Shown piece by piece: positions 7,990 through 14,630 of a DNA stretch of 16,415 nt. How positions within the stretch are numbered: the stretch's first letter is position 1; every line of letters starts with the position of its first letter. The stretch is from the IMG/VR virus record IMGVR_UViG_2690316243_000005; one strand, 5' to 3'. A program made the position numbers and the translations under genes. Source of the stretch: a virus (lineage: Duplodnaviria; Heunggongvirae; Uroviricota; Caudoviricetes). The notes below the pieces were generated by a model that saw nothing but the letters and a program-made list of their open reading frames with translations, did no database searches and was not told the DNA's origin.

Positions 7990-10900
7990 ATGGGAAAAGG
8001 TGGCGGTAAGGCACACACGCCTCGTGAGGCGAAGGATAATCTCAAATCCACGCAGATGATGAGCGTGATTGATGCGATTGGTGAGGGACTGATAGAAGGT
8101 CCGGTGAAGGGACTGCAGAGTATCCTGGTGAACAAAACCCCGCTGACGGACACGGACGGTAATCCCGTGATACACGGTGTGACGGCGGTCTGACGCGCCG
8201 GGGAGCAGGAGCAGACACCACCGGAAGGCTTTGAGTCCTCCGGTGCTGAAACCGGACTGGGCGTGGAAGTGACGAAGGCAAAACCGGTGACGCGCACCAT
8301 TACGTCCGCGAACATTGACCGCCTGCGGGTTACCTTCGGGGTGCAGTCACTGGTGCAGACCACGTCAAAGGGTGACCGAAACCCGACATCCGTCCGCCTG
8401 CTGATTCAGTTACAGCGTAACGGTAACTGGGTGACAGAAAAGGATGTCACCATTAACGGCAAGACCACCTCGCAGTTTCTGGCGTCGGTGATTCTGGATA
8501 ATCTGCCTCCCCGTCCTTTTAACATCCGGATGGTCCGGGAGACAGCGGACAGCACCACGGACCAGCTGCAGAATAAGACGCTGTGGTCGTCATACACCGA
8601 AATCATCGATGTGAAACAGTGCTACCCGAACACGGCCATTGTGGGGCTGCAGGTGGATGCGGAGCAGTTCGGCGGCCAGCAGATGACGGTGAACTACCAT
8701 ATCCGCGGTCGCATCATCCAGGTGCCGTCAAACTATGACCCGGAAAAACGCACGTACAGTGGTATCTGGGACGGCAGCCTGAAACCGGCATACAGCAACA
8801 ATCCGGCCTGGTGTCTGTGGGACATGCTGACTCACCCGCGCTACGGCATGGGAAAACGTCTGGGGGCGGCGGATGTGGACAAGTGGGCGCTGTATGCCAT
8901 CGGGCAGTACTGCGACCAGACGGTCCCGGATGGTTTCGGGGAGACCGAGCCGCGGATGACCTTCAATGCGTACCTGGCACAACAGCGTAAGGCATGGGAC
9001 GTGCTCAGTGATTTCTGCTCGGCGATGCGCTGTATGCCGGTATGGAACGGCCAGACGCTGACGTTTGTTCAGGACCGCCCGTCGGATGTGGTGTGGCCGT
9101 ACACCAACAGCGATGTGGTGGTGGATGATAACGGCGTGGGTTTCCGCTACAGCTTCAGTGCCCTGAAGGACCGGCACACGGCGGTGGAGGTGAATTATAC
9201 CGACCCGCAGAACGGCTGGCAGACCTCCACGGAACTGGTGGAAGACCCGGAAGCCATACTGCGCTACGGACGCAACCTGCTGAAGATGGACGCGTTCGGC
9301 TGTACCAGCCGCGGTCAGGCCCACCGTGCCGGACTGTGGGTGATAAAGACCGAACTGCTGGAAACGCAGACGGTGGATTTCACGCTCGGGTCTCAGGGGC
9401 TGCGGCACACACCCGGTGACATCATTGAAATCTGTGATAACGACTATGCCGGGACCCTGACCGGCGGACGTGTCCTGTCCATTGATGCTGCCACCCGCAC
9501 TCTGACGCTGGACCGTGAAGTGACACTTCCGGAGACCGGTGCCGCCACGGTGAACCTGATTAACGGCAGCGGTAAGCCGGTGAGTGTGGACATCACCGAA
9601 CACCCCGCGCCGGACCGGATACAGGTCAGTACCCTGCCTGATGGTGTGGAGACATACGGGGTGTGGGGACTCTCCCTGCCGTCACTGCGCCGTCGCCTGT
9701 TCCGCTGTGTCTCCGTCCGGGAAAACACGGACGGCACCTTTGCCATCACGGCGGTGCAGCACGTACTGGAAAAAGAAGCCATCGTGGATAACGGTGCCCG
9801 CTTTGAGCCGCAGTCAGGTTCCCTGAACAGCGTCATCCCACCGGCAGTGCAGCACCTGACGGCCAGTATCTGGCGCAGGCGAAATGGGACACGCCGCGGG
9901 TGGTGAAGGGTGTGCGCTTCAGTCTGCGCCTGACCAGTGGTAAGGGAACGGATGCCAGACTGGTGACCACCGCCATCACCGCAGACACGGAGCACCGTTT
10001 CAGCGGCCTGCCGCTCGGGGAATACACCCTGACGGTGCGGGCGATAAACAGCTATGGCCAGCAGGGTGAACCTGCCACCACCACCTTCCGGATTGCCGCA
10101 CCGGCAGCACCGTCGCGGATTGAGCTGACGCCGGGCTATTTTCAGATAACCGCAACGCCGCATCTTGCCGTTTATGACCCGACGGTACAGTTTGAGTTCT
10201 GGTTCTCGGAAAAGCGGATTGCGGATATCAGGCAGGTTGAAACCAGCGCCCGCTATCTTGGCACGGCGCTGTACTGGATAGCCGCCAGTATCAATATCAG
10301 GCCGGGCCATGATTATTATTTTTACGTTCGCAGTGTGAACACCGTTGGCAAATCGGCATTCGTGGAGGCTGTCGGTCGGGCGAGCGATGATGCGGAAGGT
10401 TACCTGGATTTTTTCAAAGGAGAGATAGGGAAAACACATCTGGCTCAGGAGCTGTGGACGCAGATTGATAACGGTCAGCTTGCGCCTGACCTGGCTGAAA
10501 TCAGGACGTCCATTACGGATGTCAGCAATGAAATCACGCAGACTGTCAATAAGAAACTGAAAGACCAGAGTGCGGCAATCCAGCAGATACAGAAGGTTCA
10601 GGTTGATACAAATAATAATCTGAACAGCATGTGGGCTGTGAAGCTGCAACAGATGAAGGACGGACGCCTTTATATTGCGGGTATCGGTGCCGGTATTGAG
10701 AATACGCCAGCAGGAATGCAGAGTCAGGTGCTGCTGGCGGCAGACAGGATTGCGATGATTAATCCTGCGAATGGCAACACAAAGCCGATGTTTGTTGGTC
10801 AGGGCGATCAGATATTCATGAACGACGTGTTCCTGAAACGCCTGACGGCTCCCACCATTACCAGCGGCGGTAATCCTCCGGCATTTTCCCTGACACCTGG

Positions 10901-11441
10901 CGGACGGCTGACGGCGAAAAATGCCGATATCAGCGGTAACGTGAACGCGAACTCCGGGACGCTCAACAACGTCACGATTAATAAGAACTGTCGGGTTCTG
11001 GGAAAATTGTCCGCGAACCAGATTGAAGGCGATCTCGTTAAAACAGTGGGCAAACCTTTCCCACGGGACTCCCGGGCACCGGAGAGGTGGCCATCAGGGA
11101 CCATTACCGTCAGGGTTTATGACGATCAGCCGTTTGATCGGCAAATTGTTATTCCCGCGGTGGCGTTTCGCGGTGCTAAACATGAGTGGAAGAATAACAA
11201 TATTTATTCGTCATGCCGCCTGATAGTGAAGAAAAACGGTGCTGAAATTTATAACCGAACGACCCTGGATAATACGCTGATATATACGGGTGTTATTGAT
11301 ATGCCTGCCGGTCACGGTCACATGACGCTGGAGTTTTCTGTATCGGCATGGCTGGTAAATGGCTGGTATCCCACAGCAAGTATCAGCGATTTGCTGGTTG
11401 TGGTGATGAAGAAAGCCACTGCAGGCATCACGATTAGCTGA
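7990..11441 (+). pseudogene. J: Central tail fiber / host-specificity protein J, disrupted by an in-frame opal codon and a frame switch
   Basis: Three ORF-track pieces (7990..8193, 8263..9906 both frame 1; 9900..11441 frame 0) read as contiguous J-like protein, total ~1150 codons (lambda J 1132 aa). TGA at 8191-8193 sits inside conserved GVT.V-x-RAGEQEQTPPEGFESSG; frame changes near 9864. Confidence 0.85.
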
Positions 11442-11460
11442 ATTTTATAACCCAGATACG

Positions 11461-11484
11461 GGCACCAGAAATGGTGCCTTTTTT
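11461..11484 (+). terminator. Rho-independent terminator after J (copy 1)
   Basis: ggcacc / agaaat loop / ggtgcc followed by TTTTTT; the lom RBS follows. Confidence 0.6.
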
Positions 11485-11508
11485 ATTGCAGAAAAGCGAG
11501 AGGTAATT

Positions 11509-11553
11509 ATGCGTAAAGTTTGTGCAGCCATTTTGTCCGCAGCCATCTGTCTG
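11509..11553 (+). pseudogene. lom: lom 5' stub (first 15 codons, MRKVCAAILSAAICL) fused to the second J 3' copy
   Basis: Identical to the first 45 nt of lom at 12444 and 13880, with the same RBS gagagg; continues out of frame into J-derived sequence and stops at 11632-11634. Confidence 0.65.
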
Positions 11554-11563
11554 ACTGAACAGC

Positions 11564-12376
11564 ATGTGGGCTGTGAAGCTGCAACAGATGAAGGACGGAC
11601 GCCTTTATATTGCGGGTATCGGTGCCGGTATTGAGAATACGCCAGCAGGAATGCAGAGTCAGGTGCTGCTGGCGGCAGACAGGATTGCGATGATTAATCC
11701 TGCGAATGGCAACACAAAGCCGATGTTTGTTGGTCAGGGCGATCAGATATTCATGAACGACGTGTTCCTGAAACGCCTGACGGCTCCCACCATTACCAGC
11801 GGCGGTAATCCTCCGGCATTTTCCCTGACACCGGACGGAAAACTGACCGCTAAAAATGCAGATATCAGTGGCAGTGTGAATGCGAACGCCGGGACGCTCA
11901 ACAATGTCACAATTAATGAGAACTGTCAGATTAAGGGGAAACTGTCAGCCAACCAGATTGAAGGCGATATAGTCAAAACAGTGGGTAAGGCTTTTCCGCG
12001 GGACTCCCGGGCACCGGAGCGGTGGCCATCAGGGACCATTACCGTCAGGATTTATGACGATCAGCCTTTTGACAGGCAAATTGTTATTCCGGCGGTGGCA
12101 TTCAGCGGCGCTAAACATGAGCGGGAGAATAACGATATTTATTCGTCATGCCGCCTGATAGTACGGAAAAACGGTGCTGAAATTTATAACCGTACCGCGC
12201 TGGATAATACGCTGATTTACAGTGGTGTTATTGATATGCCAGCTGGTCGCGGCCACATGACGCTGGAGTTTTCGGTGTCAGCATGGCTGGTGAATAACTG
12301 GTATCCCACAGCAAGTATCAGCGATTTGCTGGTTGTGGTGATGAAGAAAGCCACCGCAGGCATCAGTATCAGCTGA
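11564..12376 (+). pseudogene. J: Orphan second copy of the J C-terminal (receptor-binding) region, 270 codons, no J upstream and no obvious RBS
   Basis: Track ORF 11564..12376 parallels the last 270 aa of J copy 1: first ~90 aa identical, then ~20 substitutions. Starts at an internal Met of J. Confidence 0.7.
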
Positions 12377-12395
12377 ATTTTATAACCCATATACG

Positions 12396-12419
12396 GGCGC
12401 CAGAAATGGCGCCTTTTTT
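12396..12419 (+). terminator. Rho-independent terminator after the orphan J 3' copy
   Basis: ggcgcc / agaaat / ggcgcc plus TTTTTT; differs from copy 1 by a compensatory pair in the stem. Confidence 0.6.
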
Positions 12420-12443
12420 ATTGCAGAAAAGCGAGAGGTAATT

Positions 12444-13043
12444 ATGCGTAAAGTTTGTGCAGCCATTTTGTCCGCAGCCATCTGTCTGGCCTTATCCGGT
12501 GCGCCTGCATGGGCGTCTGAACATCAGTCCACGCTGAGCGCCGGGTATCTTCAGACCCATACTGATATGCCAGGCAGCGATGACCTGAAGGGCATTAACG
12601 TGAAATACCGTTATGAGTTTACGGACACGCTGGGGCTGATTACGTCATTCAGTTATGCCAACGCTGAAGATGAGCAAAAAACGCATTACAGCGATACCCG
12701 CTGGCATGAGGATTCCGTGCGTAACCGCTGGTTCAGCGTGATGGCGGGGCCGTCTGTGCGCGTGAATGAATGGTTCAGCGCGTATGCGATGGCGGGCGTG
12801 GCTTACAGCCGTGTGTCGACCTTCTCCGGGGATTATCTCCGCGTAACTGACAACAAGGGGAAAACGCACGATGTGCTGACCGGAAGTGATGACGGTCGCC
12901 ACAGCAACACGTCTCTGGCGTGGGGGGCTGGCGTGCAGTTTAACCCGACCGAATCCGTGGCCATTGACCTTGCTTATGAAGGTTCCGGCAGTGGTGACTG
13001 GCGCACTGACGGTTTCATCGTGGGTGTCGGTTATAAGTTCTGA
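12444..13043 (+). CDS. lom: Lom outer-membrane protein, copy 1 (Ail/Lom/OmpX-family beta-barrel)
   Basis: 199-aa ORF; signal peptide with AWA|SE cleavage site; C-terminal aromatic residue (..GYKF); matches recalled lambda Lom along its length; own RBS and flanking terminators. Confidence 0.9.
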   Translation: MRKVCAAILSAAICLALSGAPAWASEHQSTLSAGYLQTHTDMPGSDDLKGINVKYRYEFTDTLGLITSFSYANAEDEQKTHYSDTRWHEDSVRNRWFSVMAGPSVRVNEWFSAYAMAGVAYSRVSTFSGDYLRVTDNKGKTHDVLTGSDDGRHSNTSLAWGAGVQFNPTESVAIDLAYEGSGSGDWRTDGFIVGVGYKF

Positions 13044-13070
13044 TTAGCCAGGTAACACAGTGTTATGACT

Positions 13071-13095
13071 GCCCGCTGGTTCAGGCGGGCTTTTT
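13071..13095 (+). terminator. Rho-independent terminator after lom copy 1
   Basis: gcccgc / 8-nt loop / gcgggc followed by TTTTT; resembles the lambda lom-stf intergenic arrangement. Confidence 0.6.
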
Positions 13096-13106
13096 GTGGG
13101 GTGAAT

Positions 13107-13418
13107 ATGGCAGTAAAGATTTCAGGTGTACTGAAAGATGGGGCGGGTAAACCTGTCGTAAATTGTGCGATTGAACTGCGGGCCAGAAGAACCAGTCCGA
13201 CCGTTGTGGCACACGTTGTTGCCACTTGCGTGACGGACAATAACGGTGCTTATGTGATTGAGGCTGAGCCGGGGTATTACGAGGTTGCGCTTCACTGTAA
13301 CGGCTGGCAGCCAACCCGTGTCGGGGATATTGATGTGGCACCGACTGATGCACCGGGGACACTGAACGCGTTTCTGAATGCACCAAAGGATGGTGATTTA
13401 CGTCCGGAGGTGATGAAG
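13107..13418 (+). pseudogene. stf: Side tail fiber N-terminal fragment, variant allele, truncated by the IS21 remnant
   Basis: MAVKISGVLKDGAGKPV.NC.I.L.ARR... parallels the start of the stf at 14631 but diverges after ~30 aa; the open frame runs into IS sequence and stops at 13433. Confidence 0.7.
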
Positions 13419-13736
13419 TGTCAGCGCCAGTGATATAAGACGGTAATTCGCCATTTGGATTGTCCGCTCCACCCAACATGTTGTTTCCTTAAGGTTCTCA
13501 CACCAGAAAGGACATCAACATGCTGAGCAGAGAGGACTTTTACATGATAAAGCAAATGCGCCAGCAGGGCGCGTACATCGTCGATATTGCGACTCAGATT
13601 GGTTGCTCTGAACGGACGGTCAGACGCTACCTCAAATACCCTGAACCGCCAGCCAGAAAGACCCGCCACAAAATGGTTAAGCTGAAACCGTTTATGGATT
13701 ACATCGACATGCGCCTGGCAGAGAATGTCTGGAAAA
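13419..13736 (+). mobile_element. IS21-family insertion sequence remnant (terminal repeat plus 5' end of istA, ~318 bp)
   Basis: Begins TGTCAG..., carries the N-terminal 72 aa of an IstA-type transposase; homology to the J 3' end resumes at 13737. Confidence 0.8.
13520..13735 (+). pseudogene. istA: Truncated IS21 transposase IstA (N-terminal helix-turn-helix region only)
   Basis: MLSREDFYMIKQMRQQGAYIVDIATQIGCSERTVRRYLKYPEPPARKTRHKMVKLKPFMDYIDMRLAENVW matches the recalled IS21 IstA N-terminus; the following 14 residues are J-derived out-of-frame sequence. Confidence 0.8.
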
Positions 13737-13812
13737 GTATCCCACAGCAAGTATCAGCGATTTGCTGGTTGTGGTGATGAAGAAAGCCACCGCAGGCATC
13801 AGTATCAGCTGA
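13737..13812 (+). pseudogene. J: Third copy of the extreme J 3' end (last ~24 codons plus stop)
   Basis: [24 protein letters not shown] matches copy 2 (ISIS ending, not ITIS of copy 1); offset 1436 from copy 2. Confidence 0.7.
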
Positions 13813-13831
13813 ATTTTATAACCCATATACG

Positions 13832-13855
13832 GGCGCCAGAAATGGCGCCTTTTTT
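13832..13855 (+). terminator. Rho-independent terminator before lom copy 2
   Basis: Same ggcgcc / agaaat / ggcgcc + TTTTTT hairpin as at 12396-12419. Confidence 0.6.
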
Positions 13856-13879
13856 ATTGCAGAAAAGCGAGAGGTAATT

Positions 13880-14479
13880 ATGCGTAAAGTTTGTGCAGCC
13901 ATTTTGTCCGCAGCCATCTGTCTGTCCGTATCCGGTGCGCCTGCATGGGCGTCTGAACATCAGTCCACACTGAGCGCGGGGTATCTTCATGCCCGTACGA
14001 ACGCTCCCGGCAGCGATAATCTGAACGGGATTAACGTGAAATACCGTTATGAGTTTACGGACGCGCTGGGGCTGATTACGTCCTTCAGTTATGCCAATGC
14101 TGAGGATGAGCAAAAAACGCACTACAGCGATACCCGCTGGCATGAAGATTCCGTGCGTAACCGCTGGTTCAGCGTGATGGCGGGGCCGTCTGTACGCGTG
14201 AATGAATGGTTCAGCGCGTATGCGATGGTGGGTGTGGCTTACAGCCGTGTGTCGACTTTCTCCGGGGATTATCTCCGCGTAACTGACAACAAGGGGAAAA
14301 CGCACGATGTGCTGACCGGAAGTGATGACGGTCGCCACAGCAACACGTCTCTGGCGTGGGGGGCTGGCGTGCAGTTTAACCCGACCGAATCCGTGACCAT
14401 TGACCTTGCTTATGAAGGTTCCGGTAGTGGTGACTGGCGAACGGATGCATTTATTGTTGGTATCGGATACCGTATCTGA
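13880..14479 (+). CDS. lom: Lom outer-membrane protein, copy 2 (diverged paralog)
   Basis: 199-aa ORF with the same signal peptide and barrel signature; differs from copy 1 mainly in the signal peptide, residues ~36-49 and the C-terminus (GIGYRI). Confidence 0.9.
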   Translation: MRKVCAAILSAAICLSVSGAPAWASEHQSTLSAGYLHARTNAPGSDNLNGINVKYRYEFTDALGLITSFSYANAEDEQKTHYSDTRWHEDSVRNRWFSVMAGPSVRVNEWFSAYAMVGVAYSRVSTFSGDYLRVTDNKGKTHDVLTGSDDGRHSNTSLAWGAGVQFNPTESVTIDLAYEGSGSGDWRTDAFIVGIGYRI

Positions 14480-14584
14480 CAACAGACGCCGATTTATCTT
14501 CTGTAAATATTGTTATGATACGCAGGTTCATCCACCTTATGGGGTGAACTGCGTTTGAGGAAACGTAAAGTTACACTGTCCTGA

Positions 14585-14616
14585 AGCCCGTGGCGTCACT
14601 GCTGCGGGCTTTTTTT
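14585..14616 (+). terminator. Possible terminator between lom copy 2 and stf
   Basis: agcccg ... cgggct stem with a large 14-nt loop followed by a 7-T run; weaker than the other terminators. Confidence 0.35.
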
Positions 14617-14630
14617 ATTGGTGGAAAAGT

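What the first reader, a model, noticed from the sequence alone, without database searches (positions are those of the whole stretch)
12444..14479. Two intact, diverged lom genes kept with their own expression signals while adjacent phage genes decay; differences cluster in one short segment
Both lom ORFs are full length (199 aa) with identical RBS context, signal-peptide cleavage site and flanking terminators, while J, stf' and FII around them are broken. The paralogs are near-identical except in the signal peptide (ALSGA vs SVSGA), residues ~36-49 (LQTHTDMPGSDDLKG vs LHARTNAPGSDNLNG) and the last residues (GVGYKF vs GIGYRI). In Ail/Lom/OmpX-type barrels the segment after the first strand is typically a surface loop, so this pattern suggests diversifying selection on an exposed loop. 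It fits lom acting as a host-beneficial moron retained after the phage is defective.
Basis: partly seen in the sequence, partly recalled or inferred. Interest (0 to 1): 0.45.

Follow-up and report, generated by a model that had tools for sequence, protein, structure and literature searches.

The report
Two prophage lom alleles, probably mis-joined
The two lom outer-membrane genes are real, ordinary alleles from two different defective lambda-like prophages, and they sit side by side here most likely because a draft genome assembly stitched the two prophages together; their differences are old, shuffled sequence blocks in a surface loop already known to vary.

Summary
Both 199-codon lom ORFs exist as described: 183/199 residues are identical, and 7 of the 16 differences lie in residues 37-49. 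That segment is the first extracellular loop (L1) and is the most variable mature segment across 82 lom alleles.

The framing does not hold.
- The window is a whole 16,415-bp draft contig, probably Shigella sonnei.
- Finished genomes carry lom2 and a lom1-type allele in two separate prophages, A and B, each after its own J gene.
- The contig strings A and B blocks in series.
- The lom'/J' join lies exactly on sites where A and B differ. A sister draft has a literal N at the same kind of join.
- The chimeric products occur in no other assembly.
- The tandem layout, the J' and J'' fragments and the identical upstream context are therefore probably scaffolding artefacts.

The L1 differences are not recent adaptive changes. 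Synonymous divergence there is also about nine times higher than in the rest of the gene (dS 0.95, dN/dS 0.31). Both L1 versions and both C-terminal versions recur in other prophages in all combinations.

Lom2 also ends in Ile instead of the otherwise invariant Phe.

Verdict: known gene family, known loop variability, low interest.

The parts
12444..13043 (+). lom1: a 199-aa Ail/Lom family outer-membrane beta-barrel precursor. It is the B-locus type, with L1 cassette LQTHTDMPGSDDLKG and C-terminus GVGYKF.
   Evidence: ORF. Pfam PF06316, 429.5 bits. It differs by 2 nt from the lom of the finished B locus L113. This exact protein occurs only in this contig.
13880..14479 (+). lom2: a 199-aa Ail/Lom precursor. 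It is the A-locus type, with L1 cassette LHARTNAPGSDNLNG and C-terminus GIGYRI (terminal Ile instead of Phe).
   Evidence: ORF. Pfam PF06316, 416.4 bits, with the match ending at position 198 of 199. The exact protein is in 721 collection blocks, including Shigella sonnei 53G record HE616528.1.
12549..12593 (+). lom1 codons 36-50, the extracellular loop L1 cassette. The equivalent in lom2 is 13985-14029.
   Evidence: 7 of the 16 replacements fall here. dS 0.95, dN 0.29. Lies between strands 1 and 2 in both models. 16 nucleotide haplotypes fall into a few classes.
11509..11553 (+). lom': the first 45 nt of a third lom copy. It ends exactly before the first site at which A-type and B-type lom differ.
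   Evidence: Window 1509-11553 is collinear with L104 1-10045, which runs 45 nt into lom. Sequence. The first lom1/lom2 difference is at nt 46.
11554..11554 (.). Join 1: a single base 'A' that matches neither the lom nor the J sequence of either locus. Probably a filled 1-nt scaffold gap.
   Evidence: lom nt 46 is G (B) or T (A). J position -822 is T (A) or C (B). The sister draft L107 has 'N' at the equivalent join.
11555..12376 (+). J': the last 821 nt of an A-type J gene. It begins exactly at the first base of a 219-nt block that is identical in loci A and B.
   Evidence: 100% identical to L104-L110 over 11685-12376. A/B mismatch at -822, identity from -821 to -603. The 270-aa product is unique to this contig.
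10750..11441 (+). B-type C-terminal (receptor-binding) part of J, attached to an otherwise A-type, frameshifted J.
   Evidence: 99.6% identical to the B loci L113-L120, and carries 74 of the 82 differences from L104. The resulting 513-aa product is unique to this contig.
12301..12488 (+). A-type J-tail / terminator / RBS / lom-start module placed before the B-type lom1. It is identical to 13737-13924 and differs at 7 positions from 11366-11553.
13107..13418 (+). stf': the N-terminal ~104 codons of a side tail fibre gene, truncated by an IS21-family insertion. This is a real feature of locus B.
   Evidence: Pfam PF08400, E 1e-36. The exact 122-aa product is in 543 blocks, including finished chromosomes. 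Boundary.
13419..13734 (+). 5' part of an IS21-family element: the terminal sequence TGTCAGCGCC... and the first 72 codons of istA.
   Evidence: 99% identical to annotated IS21-family istA genes. In L006 and in the B loci the IS continues past this point.
13735..13736 (.). Join 2: 'AA' between the IS21 interior and J position -75. It lies 3 nt inside the A/B-identical block that starts at -78.
13737..13812 (+). J'': the last 76 nt of an A-type J. From here to 16415 the contig is 100% identical to finished locus A.
14631..16415 (+). stf: the A-locus side tail fibre gene, open to the contig end.
   Evidence: Translation. It is 918 aa in the finished genomes.

Best explanation
The window is a complete draft-assembly contig (CXCY01000103.1 of GCA_001258795.1), probably from Shigella sonnei. 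The isolate carries two defective lambda-like prophages.

- Locus A lies next to trpA. It has FII cut by an IS, J in three pieces, lom2 and a full stf.
- Locus B lies next to an ABC-3 transporter operon. It has an intact J, a lom1-type allele, and stf cut by an IS21 element.

The tail regions of A and B share long identical stretches. The assembler or scaffolder collapsed the shared parts and laid the differing parts end to end. The resulting order is: A backbone, B-type J end, lom', join, A-type J end, B-type lom1-stf'-IS21', join, A-type J tail-lom2-stf. The tandem lom pair is therefore an artefact, while the two alleles themselves are real.

Each lom encodes a signal-peptide-bearing, eight-stranded Ail/Lom/OmpX-type outer-membrane barrel. 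The differences between the two are pre-existing allelic cassettes: L1, the C-terminal strand and the signal peptide. Lambdoid prophages exchange such cassettes by homologous recombination.

L1 is surface-exposed and is the least constrained mature segment. Its replacement-to-silent ratio stays below 1.

By analogy with lambda Lom (inferred), the proteins are made from the prophage and act at the cell surface, in adhesion and/or in blocking adsorption of related phages.
For: Identity of the contig:
- Lom1, the 270-aa J' and the 513-aa chimeric J piece each occur only in this contig among the indexed assemblies.
- Lom2 occurs in 721 blocks and the stf'::IS21 product in 543 blocks.

Separate loci in finished chromosomes:
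- L103-L106 and L108 show J(67+547+513 aa)-lom-stf next to trpA.
- L113-L120 show J(1159 aa)-lom-stf'(122 aa)-IS21 next to ABC-3 genes.

Serial A/B pattern:
- Window 1509-10749 has 8 differences from L104.
- 10750-11441 is 99.6% B-type.
- 11685-12376 is 100% A-type. From about 12455 to 13734 the contig is B-type at all but two discriminating sites.
- 13737-16415 is 100% A-type.

Joins on variant sites:
- lom' ends at nt 45, and the first A/B difference is at nt 46.
- J' starts at -821, with an A/B mismatch at -822. Base 11554 fits neither type.
- Sister draft L107 has lom nt 183 (a variant site), then 'N', then J -866 (variant at -867). IMG/VR drafts L005 and L006 also have single-N joins in this region.

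Absence elsewhere:
- None of 5,426 complete E. coli genomes has one place covering at least 80% of 13000-13900. The best matches to 11400-15000 span only about 2 kb.

Family and topology:
- Pfam PF06316. Lambda Lom 9wso E 1e-50, OmpX and Ail about E 1e-19.
- Foldseek top hits are OmpX 1qj9 and Ail 3qrc. Both models have eight strands.

Mosaic cassettes:
- dS values by segment. Cassette combinations. Lambda-like L1 fused to a lom2-like body in P0069.

Function of lambda Lom:
- Expressed in lysogens (PMC7067206).
- Over-expression blocks lambda-vir but not T7 (PMC12366544).
Against: - No reads are available, so the joins cannot be checked directly.
- Join 2 is 3 nt away from the variant boundary rather than exactly on it. 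The IS21 side of that join could not be related to any repeat boundary.
- De Bruijn assemblers do not normally join sequences that lack overlap. The artefact therefore has to come from a scaffolding or gap-closing step that I infer but did not see documented for this assembly.
- I could not show locus A and locus B in one and the same finished genome. The accessions shown for A and for B did not overlap.
- The species assignment rests on 100% identity to record HE616528.1. I identify that record as S. sonnei 53G from my own knowledge, not from a tool output.
Confidence: 0.82

Rival explanations
1. The tandem arrangement is real. A replication template switch or illegitimate recombination copied a 2.2-kb piece of prophage B (J end, lom1, stf', part of IS21) into prophage A, duplicating 188 bp. 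The isolate then truly carries lom'-J'-lom1-stf'-IS21'-J''-lom2 in one locus.
For: - Both joins lack the long overlap at which an assembler would normally mis-join.
- Short shared motifs flank them: CTG at join 1 and CTGG at join 2. This is what microhomology-mediated switching would leave.
- An insert with a flanking duplication of the target (188 bp) fits a switch-out and switch-back event.
Against: - Both sides of join 1 sit exactly on sites that distinguish loci A and B.
- The same is true of a differently placed join in sister draft L107, which carries an explicit N.
- The inserted 'B piece' is itself A-type over J' and B-type from lom1 onward, and the resident J has a B-type end. Several extra exchanges would be needed.
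- The arrangement and its chimeric proteins are unique to one draft among hundreds of assemblies carrying the parts.
Confidence: 0.12
2. One reading: the two lom genes are paralogues that diverged from each other under positive diversifying selection on loop L1, and selection keeps both intact in a decaying prophage.
For: - L1 is extracellular.
- It holds 7 of the 16 replacements.
- dN in L1 is about 30 times that of codons 51-185.
- It has the highest piN and piN/piS of the mature protein across alleles.
Against: - dS in L1 is also about 9 times higher than in the rest (0.95 against 0.106), and dN/dS is 0.31.
- Both L1 versions are common, nucleotide-identical cassettes in other prophages: 51 and 7 of 82 alleles.
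- Only one private change exists per gene.
- In finished genomes the genes sit in different prophages.
- Ten neighbouring tail genes are intact too.
- Lom2 has lost the invariant terminal Phe.
Confidence: 0.04
3. This is an addition to the best explanation, not an alternative to it. The discrete L1 cassettes are kept in the lambdoid lom gene pool by balancing or frequency-dependent selection, from host immunity or from phages that see the loop. This would also raise silent diversity around L1.
For: - A few deeply diverged L1 classes persist and recombine freely onto different backbones.
- piN/piS is 0.49 in L1 against 0.14 elsewhere.
- An 8-residue longer, lambda-like L1 class also circulates.
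- Lambda Lom has a phage-specific adsorption-blocking effect (PMC12366544).
Against: - piS is equally high or higher in L2 (0.219) and in the C-terminal strand (0.456), where piN is low. High silent diversity is therefore not specific to L1.
- Simple relaxed constraint on a loop, combined with mosaic ancestry, explains the data without selection.
- The allele sample is the 80 closest hits to each query, so it is not a random sample.
Confidence: 0.25

Closest known systems
Bacteriophage lambda Lom (NP_040601; PDB 9wso)
   Same: - The gene lies between J and stf in a lambda-type tail module.
- It has a signal peptide.
- It aligns end to end with lambda Lom (E 1.2e-50).
- The conserved motifs are shared: NVKYRYE, AYEGSGSGDWRTDGFIVGVGYKF.
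   Different: - Identity is only moderate.
- Lambda Lom is 206 aa, with an L1 that is 8 residues longer, and it differs in L2 and L3.
- Lom2 ends in Ile rather than Phe.
OmpX (E. coli; 1QJ8/1QJ9) and Ail (Yersinia; 3QRA/3QRC)
   Same: - Eight-stranded barrel fold. They are the best structural matches to the model.
- Sequence E about 1e-19.
- The family pattern of conserved membrane strands and variable external loops, as described for OmpX by Vogt and Schulz 1999 (from my own knowledge).
   Different: - OmpX and Ail are chromosomal, not prophage-borne.
- They are about 25 residues shorter, because their L2 and L3 are shorter.
- Sequence identity is about 30%.
Scaffold concatenation of paralogous repeat variants in short-read draft assemblies
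   Same: - Collapsed shared sequence, with variant blocks from two loci laid in series.
- Joins at variant sites.
- Single-N or single-base fillers.
   Different: In the window the gaps are filled with A and AA rather than N. The pipeline step responsible is inferred, not documented here.

Membership tests
Ail/Lom family (Pfam PF06316) | Full-length match to the family profile above the curated cut-off | tested here: met
   Lom1 scores 429.5 bits and Lom2 416.4 bits against a cut-off of 23. Coverage is 1-199 and 1-198 of 199 profile positions.
Ail/Lom family (Pfam PF06316) | Eight-stranded antiparallel beta-barrel of the OmpX/Ail type | tested here: met
   Both AlphaFold models have eight long strands. 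The Foldseek top hits are OmpX 1qj9 and Ail 3qrc, probability 1.00. Caveat: the models have low confidence (pLDDT 59.5 and 64.0).
Ail/Lom family (Pfam PF06316) | N-terminal Sec signal peptide with an Ala-X-Ala cleavage site | tested here: inconclusive
   Read directly from the sequence: MRKVCAAILSAAICL(A/S)(L/V)SGAPAWA|SEHQ. No signal-peptide predictor was run. The models show residues 2-18 as a helix.
Ail/Lom family (Pfam PF06316) | C-terminal aromatic residue (Phe) of the outer-membrane beta-signal | tested here: not met
   Lom1 ends in F, so it meets the feature. Lom2 ends in I. F is present in 75 of 76 allele proteins and in every homologue with a complete C-terminus. This weakens the case that Lom2 is fully functional, not the case that it belongs to the family.
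Lambda-type lom locus | Position between tail-tip gene J and side tail fibre gene stf, on the same strand | tested here: met
   This holds in the window and in finished loci A and B.
Moron (autonomous prophage accessory gene: own promoter and terminator, expressed in the lysogen) | Own promoter upstream of the gene | tested here: inconclusive
   The consensus scan found no sigma-70-like site on the + strand in 11300-14750. The upstream hairpin ends 29 nt before the ATG. The scan is crude, and no promoter for lambda lom was located in the papers read here.
Moron (autonomous prophage accessory gene: own promoter and terminator, expressed in the lysogen) | Terminator directly after the gene | tested here: met
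   Hairpin plus T-run at 13071-13090 after lom1 and at 14583-14612 after lom2.
Moron (autonomous prophage accessory gene: own promoter and terminator, expressed in the lysogen) | Expression from the repressed prophage | not testable with these tools
   This is known for lambda lom (PMC7067206; PMC12366544). There are no data for these alleles.

The most novel reading that the evidence does not exclude
The L1 cassette of Lom may be matched to the receptor-binding end of the neighbouring J protein. Each lambdoid phage would then carry a Lom that blocks adsorption of its own kind (self- or kin-exclusion), and the cassettes would travel with J types. In the allele set, the Q-type L1 is enriched next to one J C-terminal cluster (9 of 16 against 3 of 38; odds ratio 15, p 3e-4). 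That association is stronger than the one between L1 and lom's own C-terminal cassette (odds ratio 5.7, p 0.10). Lambda Lom has been reported to block lambda-vir but not T7 (PMC12366544).
Probability: 0.07. Interest if true: 0.6.

Novelty: already known. Interest (0 to 1): 0.12.

Why it matters
It matters little for biology. lom is a well-known prophage accessory gene, and variable external loops are the textbook pattern for Ail/Lom/OmpX barrels.

The practical lesson concerns data quality:
- An apparently striking 'tandem duplicated, diverged moron' can come from the scaffolding of paralogous prophages in a short-read draft.
- Clustered amino-acid differences between such copies can be old recombined cassettes rather than recent adaptation.
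- Checking dS alongside dN, and checking the joins against finished genomes, settles both points quickly.

Two small residues of interest remain. The S. sonnei lom2 allele lacks the terminal Phe. There is also a possible link between L1 type and J type.

Tried and rejected
1. I looked for the arrangement in complete E. coli genomes. It is absent, but that collection excludes Shigella, so the result is not decisive alone.
2. An exact look-up of the chimeric 85-aa IS21/J ORF found nothing on record, not even for the source contig. It is therefore uninformative.
3. I took the IMG/VR contig with two loms 1,496 bp apart (L006/L089) as possible independent support for tandem loms. I rejected it because the link contains a single-N scaffold join.
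4. I ran two AlphaFold runs, on the precursor and on the mature protein. Both have low confidence (pLDDT 59.5 and 64.0), and the L1 stretch itself is below 50. I used them only for strand order, together with homology to OmpX, Ail and Lom.
5. The promoter scan found nothing on the + strand. It neither proves nor excludes autonomous expression.
6. Literature searches for the paper behind PDB 9wso, and for lom allele surveys, found no such paper.
7. I considered in-situ gene conversion between tandem copies as the cause of the 188-nt identity. I rejected it in favour of the A-type module having been placed before lom1 by the assembly path.
8. One representative genome per species would be unlikely to hold this S. 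sonnei-specific join.
Full report
**1. What is in the sequence**

- lom1 (12444-13043) and lom2 (13880-14479) each encode 199 residues.
- They share 183/199 identical residues with no gaps.
- Codon by codon there are 16 replacement differences, at residues 16, 17, 37, 38, 39, 41, 42, 47, 49, 62, 117, 173, 190, 195, 198 and 199. There are also 22 silent differences.
- The 143 nt before each ATG and the first 45 nt of each gene are identical.
- Terminator-like hairpins lie before and after each gene.
- Both proteins match Pfam Ail_Lom end to end, at 429.5 and 416.4 bits against a cut-off of 23.
- They match solved lambda Lom (9wso, E 1e-50) and also OmpX and Ail (about 1e-19).

**2. The neighbourhood is a three-fold nested repeat**

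The module 'last 76 nt of J, 67-nt spacer with hairpin and RBS, first 45 nt of lom' occurs three times: at 11366-11553, 12301-12488 and 13737-13924. The first copy is followed by only those 45 nt of lom (11509-11553). Then come:
- a single A at 11554;
- the last 821 nt of a second J copy (11555-12376);
- lom1;
- 104 codons of a side tail fibre gene (13107-13418);
- the first ~316 nt of an IS21-family element (13419-13734);
- the bases AA;
- the last 76 nt of J again;
- lom2 and a full-length stf.

**3. Where the window comes from**

An exact-protein look-up shows that the window is the whole of contig CXCY01000103.1 (16,415 bp) of draft assembly GCA_001258795.1.
- Lom1, the 270-aa J' product and the 513-aa J piece are each found in that contig and nowhere else in the indexed collection.
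- Lom2, in contrast, is found in 721 blocks, including finished chromosomes such as HE616528.1. I know that record as Shigella sonnei 53G.
- The 122-aa stf'::IS21 product is found in 543 blocks, also including finished chromosomes.

**4. Finished genomes have two separate loci**

- Locus A lies next to trpA. Its order is V-G-T-H-M-L-K-I, J in pieces of 67+547+513 aa, one lom (identical to Lom2), then a 918-aa stf.
- Locus B lies next to an ABC-3 transporter operon. Its order is L-K-I, an intact 1159-aa J, one lom, the 122-aa stf', then an IS21 that is itself interrupted by another IS.
- The B-locus lom differs from the window's lom1 by 2 nt.

**5. The contig is a serial concatenation of A and B blocks**

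| Window coordinates | Type | Evidence |
|---|---|---|
| 1509-10749 | A (8 differences from L104) | |
| 10750-11441 | B (99.6% to L113-L120; holds 74 of the 82 differences from L104) | |
| 11685-12376 | A (100%) | |
| 12301-12443 | A at all discriminating sites | |
| ~12455-13734 | B at all but two discriminating sites | |
| 13737-16415 | A (100%) | |

Every block in which A and B differ is present once, one after the other. This is what happens when a scaffolder orders paralogous variant contigs linearly between collapsed shared sequence.

**6. The joins give it away**

- lom' stops at nt 45, and the first A/B difference in lom is at nt 46.
- J' starts at position -821 from the J stop. A and B differ at -822 and are identical from -821 to -603.
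- The base between them (11554, A) fits neither lom (G or T) nor J (T or C) of either locus.
- A sister draft with the same CX accession prefix, so probably from the same project (L107, GCA_001259615.1), has a differently placed join of the same kind. There lom runs to nt 183 (a variant site), then comes a literal 'N', then J from -866 (variant at -867).
- That contig also abuts P2-type baseplate genes on J.
- IMG/VR drafts L005 and L006 show single-N joins in the same region. This disqualifies the one apparent independent case of tandem loms, L006/L089.
- No complete E. coli genome has the arrangement.

I therefore put about 0.8-0.85 on the tandem layout being an assembly artefact and about 0.1 on a real template-switch insertion. 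Reads were not available, so this remains an inference.

**7.

- The 'identical RBS context and terminator' arises because an A-type module precedes B-type lom1 in this contig. The copy of the module after the B-type J end (11366-11553) differs from the A-type copies at 7 of 188 positions, including a paired change in the hairpin stem (GGGCACC...GGTGCC against GGGCGCC...GGCGCC).
- Leu17 of lom1 is a private base 3 nt from the variant boundary. It is seen in none of the 75 other allele proteins.
- At nt 449, lom1 carries the A-type base.
- The J' and J'' 'broken genes' are artefacts.
- The J frameshifts, stf'::IS21 and the FII truncation are real or probably real. Window 1-33 is an inverted IS21 end that abuts the last ~25 codons of FII.
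- Ten tail genes of locus A are intact. An intact 600-bp lom is therefore not evidence of special retention.

**8. Is 36-49 a surface loop?**

Yes.
- Both AlphaFold models give eight strands with short turns at 59-64, 107-110 and 167-171, and long hairpins between them.
- The β1-β2 connection is residues 38-51 in the precursor model and 34-47 in the mature-protein model.
- Confidence is low (pLDDT 59.5 and 64.0, and below 50 in the loop). However, the models' best PDB matches are OmpX and Ail.
- The HMMER alignment places residues 36-50 opposite OmpX residues 10-23.
- In the published OmpX structure those residues are the top of β1, loop L1 and the top of β2, on the extracellular side. This rests on established knowledge (Vogt and Schulz 1999).

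**9. Is it unusually variable?**

Yes. I extracted 103 intact lom genes from 102 IMG/VR loci. Together with the two window genes, they give 82 unique nucleotide alleles and 76 unique proteins.

| Segment | piN | piN/piS |
|---|---|---|
| L1, codons 36-50 | 0.093 | 0.49 |
| Rest of mature protein | 0.022 | 0.14 |

In a deeper alignment of 37 homologues, L1 also carries an 8-residue indel class (lambda-like). L2 (residues 73-81) shows a second cassette, NAEDEQKTH against GDKNRQLTR.

**10. Is it diversifying selection between paralogues?**

No. Divergence between lom1 and lom2, by segment:

| Codons | dS | dN | dN/dS |
|---|---|---|---|
| 36-50 (L1) | 0.95 | 0.29 | 0.31 |
| 51-185 | 0.106 | 0.010 | 0.09 |
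| 186-199 | saturated (9.5 of 9.8 silent sites differ) | 0.19 | n/a |

- Silent divergence that jumps nine-fold within a gene marks a mosaic of old and young segments.
- The L1 versions are nucleotide-identical to cassettes carried by 7 (lom1 type) and 51 (lom2 type) of the 82 alleles.
- Apart from lom2's private F199I base, the C-terminal versions are likewise shared cassettes.
- L1 and C-terminal classes occur in all combinations.
- P0069 joins a lambda-like N-terminus and L1 to a lom2-like body.

The differences were therefore imported by recombination among lambdoid prophages. They did not evolve in this genome. Long-term balancing selection on L1 classes is not excluded, but silent diversity is just as high in L2 and in the last strand, where replacements are rare.

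**11. The Lom2 C-terminus**

Lom2 ends in GYRI. Every other allele and every homologue with a complete C-terminus ends in Phe, and the Pfam match stops one residue short. The C-terminal Phe is the key residue of the outer-membrane beta-signal. This rests on established knowledge (Struyvé et al. 1991). The S. sonnei allele, present in 721 blocks, may therefore be less well assembled into the membrane. This fits gene decay in Shigella better than retention by selection, but it is an inference.

**12. How it most likely works**

Shown here:
- family membership;
- barrel topology;
- position between J and stf;
- terminators.

Inferred from lambda:
- Lom is made in lysogens (PMC7067206).
- Lom rises late in infection and, when over-expressed, blocks lambda-vir but not T7. 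The authors proposed that it prevents non-productive adsorption of kin phage (PMC12366544).
- An adhesion role has also been reported (Vica Pacheco 1997, cited in those papers).

No + strand sigma-70-like promoter was found before either gene, so autonomous expression is unproven here.

**13. A speculative residue**

- L1 class is associated with the type of the adjacent J receptor-binding end (odds ratio 15, p 3e-4).
- That association is stronger than the one between L1 and lom's own C-terminal cassette at a similar distance (odds ratio 5.7, p 0.10).
- Physical linkage and non-independent sampling can explain this.

I rate a functional J-Lom matching at about 0.07.

**14. Verdict**

- The ORFs and their differences are real.
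- The tandem context is probably an assembly artefact.
- The loop assignment and its excess variability are correct, but they are the known pattern for this family.
- The selection and retention story is not supported.
- Interest is low.

Noticed in passing
window 1-107: The contig begins with 33 nt that are the reverse complement of the IS21-family end at 13419-13452. These abut the last ~25 codons of FII (SPDDGGSCYLWLNRGQPPAVNRRR*). FII is therefore truncated by an IS end, not merely cut by the contig edge.
   Followed up: partly
window 7647-7989: A 343-bp AT-rich spacer (42% GC against 55.5% for the window) lies between tail genes I and J. It holds a 113-aa ORF (7668-8009) with no Pfam match and a hairpin (CCCCGGTATCTGCTGATACCGGGG). 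Finished locus-A genomes have the same spacing between I and J. Lambda has only about 60 nt there (from my own knowledge).
   Followed up: no
window 14474-14479 (lom2 codon 199): Lom2 ends in Ile (ATC) where all other alleles and homologues have the beta-signal Phe (TTC). This allele is widespread: 721 collection blocks, including S. sonnei 53G.
   Followed up: partly
window 7990-11441: J is split into 67-, 547- and 513-aa ORFs. The same split is present in finished locus-A genomes, so that decay is real. In this contig, however, the last ~690 nt are of the locus-B type.
   Followed up: yes
L107 (GCA_001259615.1, CXDS01000012.1) 1-9100: The sister draft contig has P2-like baseplate genes (Baseplate_J, Tail_P2_I) running straight into a lambda-type J. 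It also has a single-N join between a lom fragment and a J fragment. This suggests systematic scaffold chimerism in that assembly set.
   Followed up: partly
L087 1501-2100: This is a lom2-like allele with a premature stop (W110*). It is the only clearly inactivated lom among 105 copies. The one other broken copy, in L012, contains an N (scaffold join).
   Followed up: no
J C-terminal 135 aa upstream of lom in loci L001-L102: The L1 cassette class is associated with the J receptor-binding-domain cluster (odds ratio 15, p 3e-4). Both combinations exist, and linkage is not excluded.
   Followed up: partly
window 14917-16011: The Ala/Ser/Thr-rich low-complexity middle of stf generates long spurious ORFs in other frames and on the opposite strand (for example 364 aa on + and 244 aa on -). 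One of these was called as a gene in several public annotations.
   Followed up: no
PDB 9wso: A solved structure of lambda Lom (206 aa, one entry, two chains) is in the PDB sequence file. It did not appear in the Foldseek results (library up to April 2026). No paper describing it was found in the library.
   Followed up: partly
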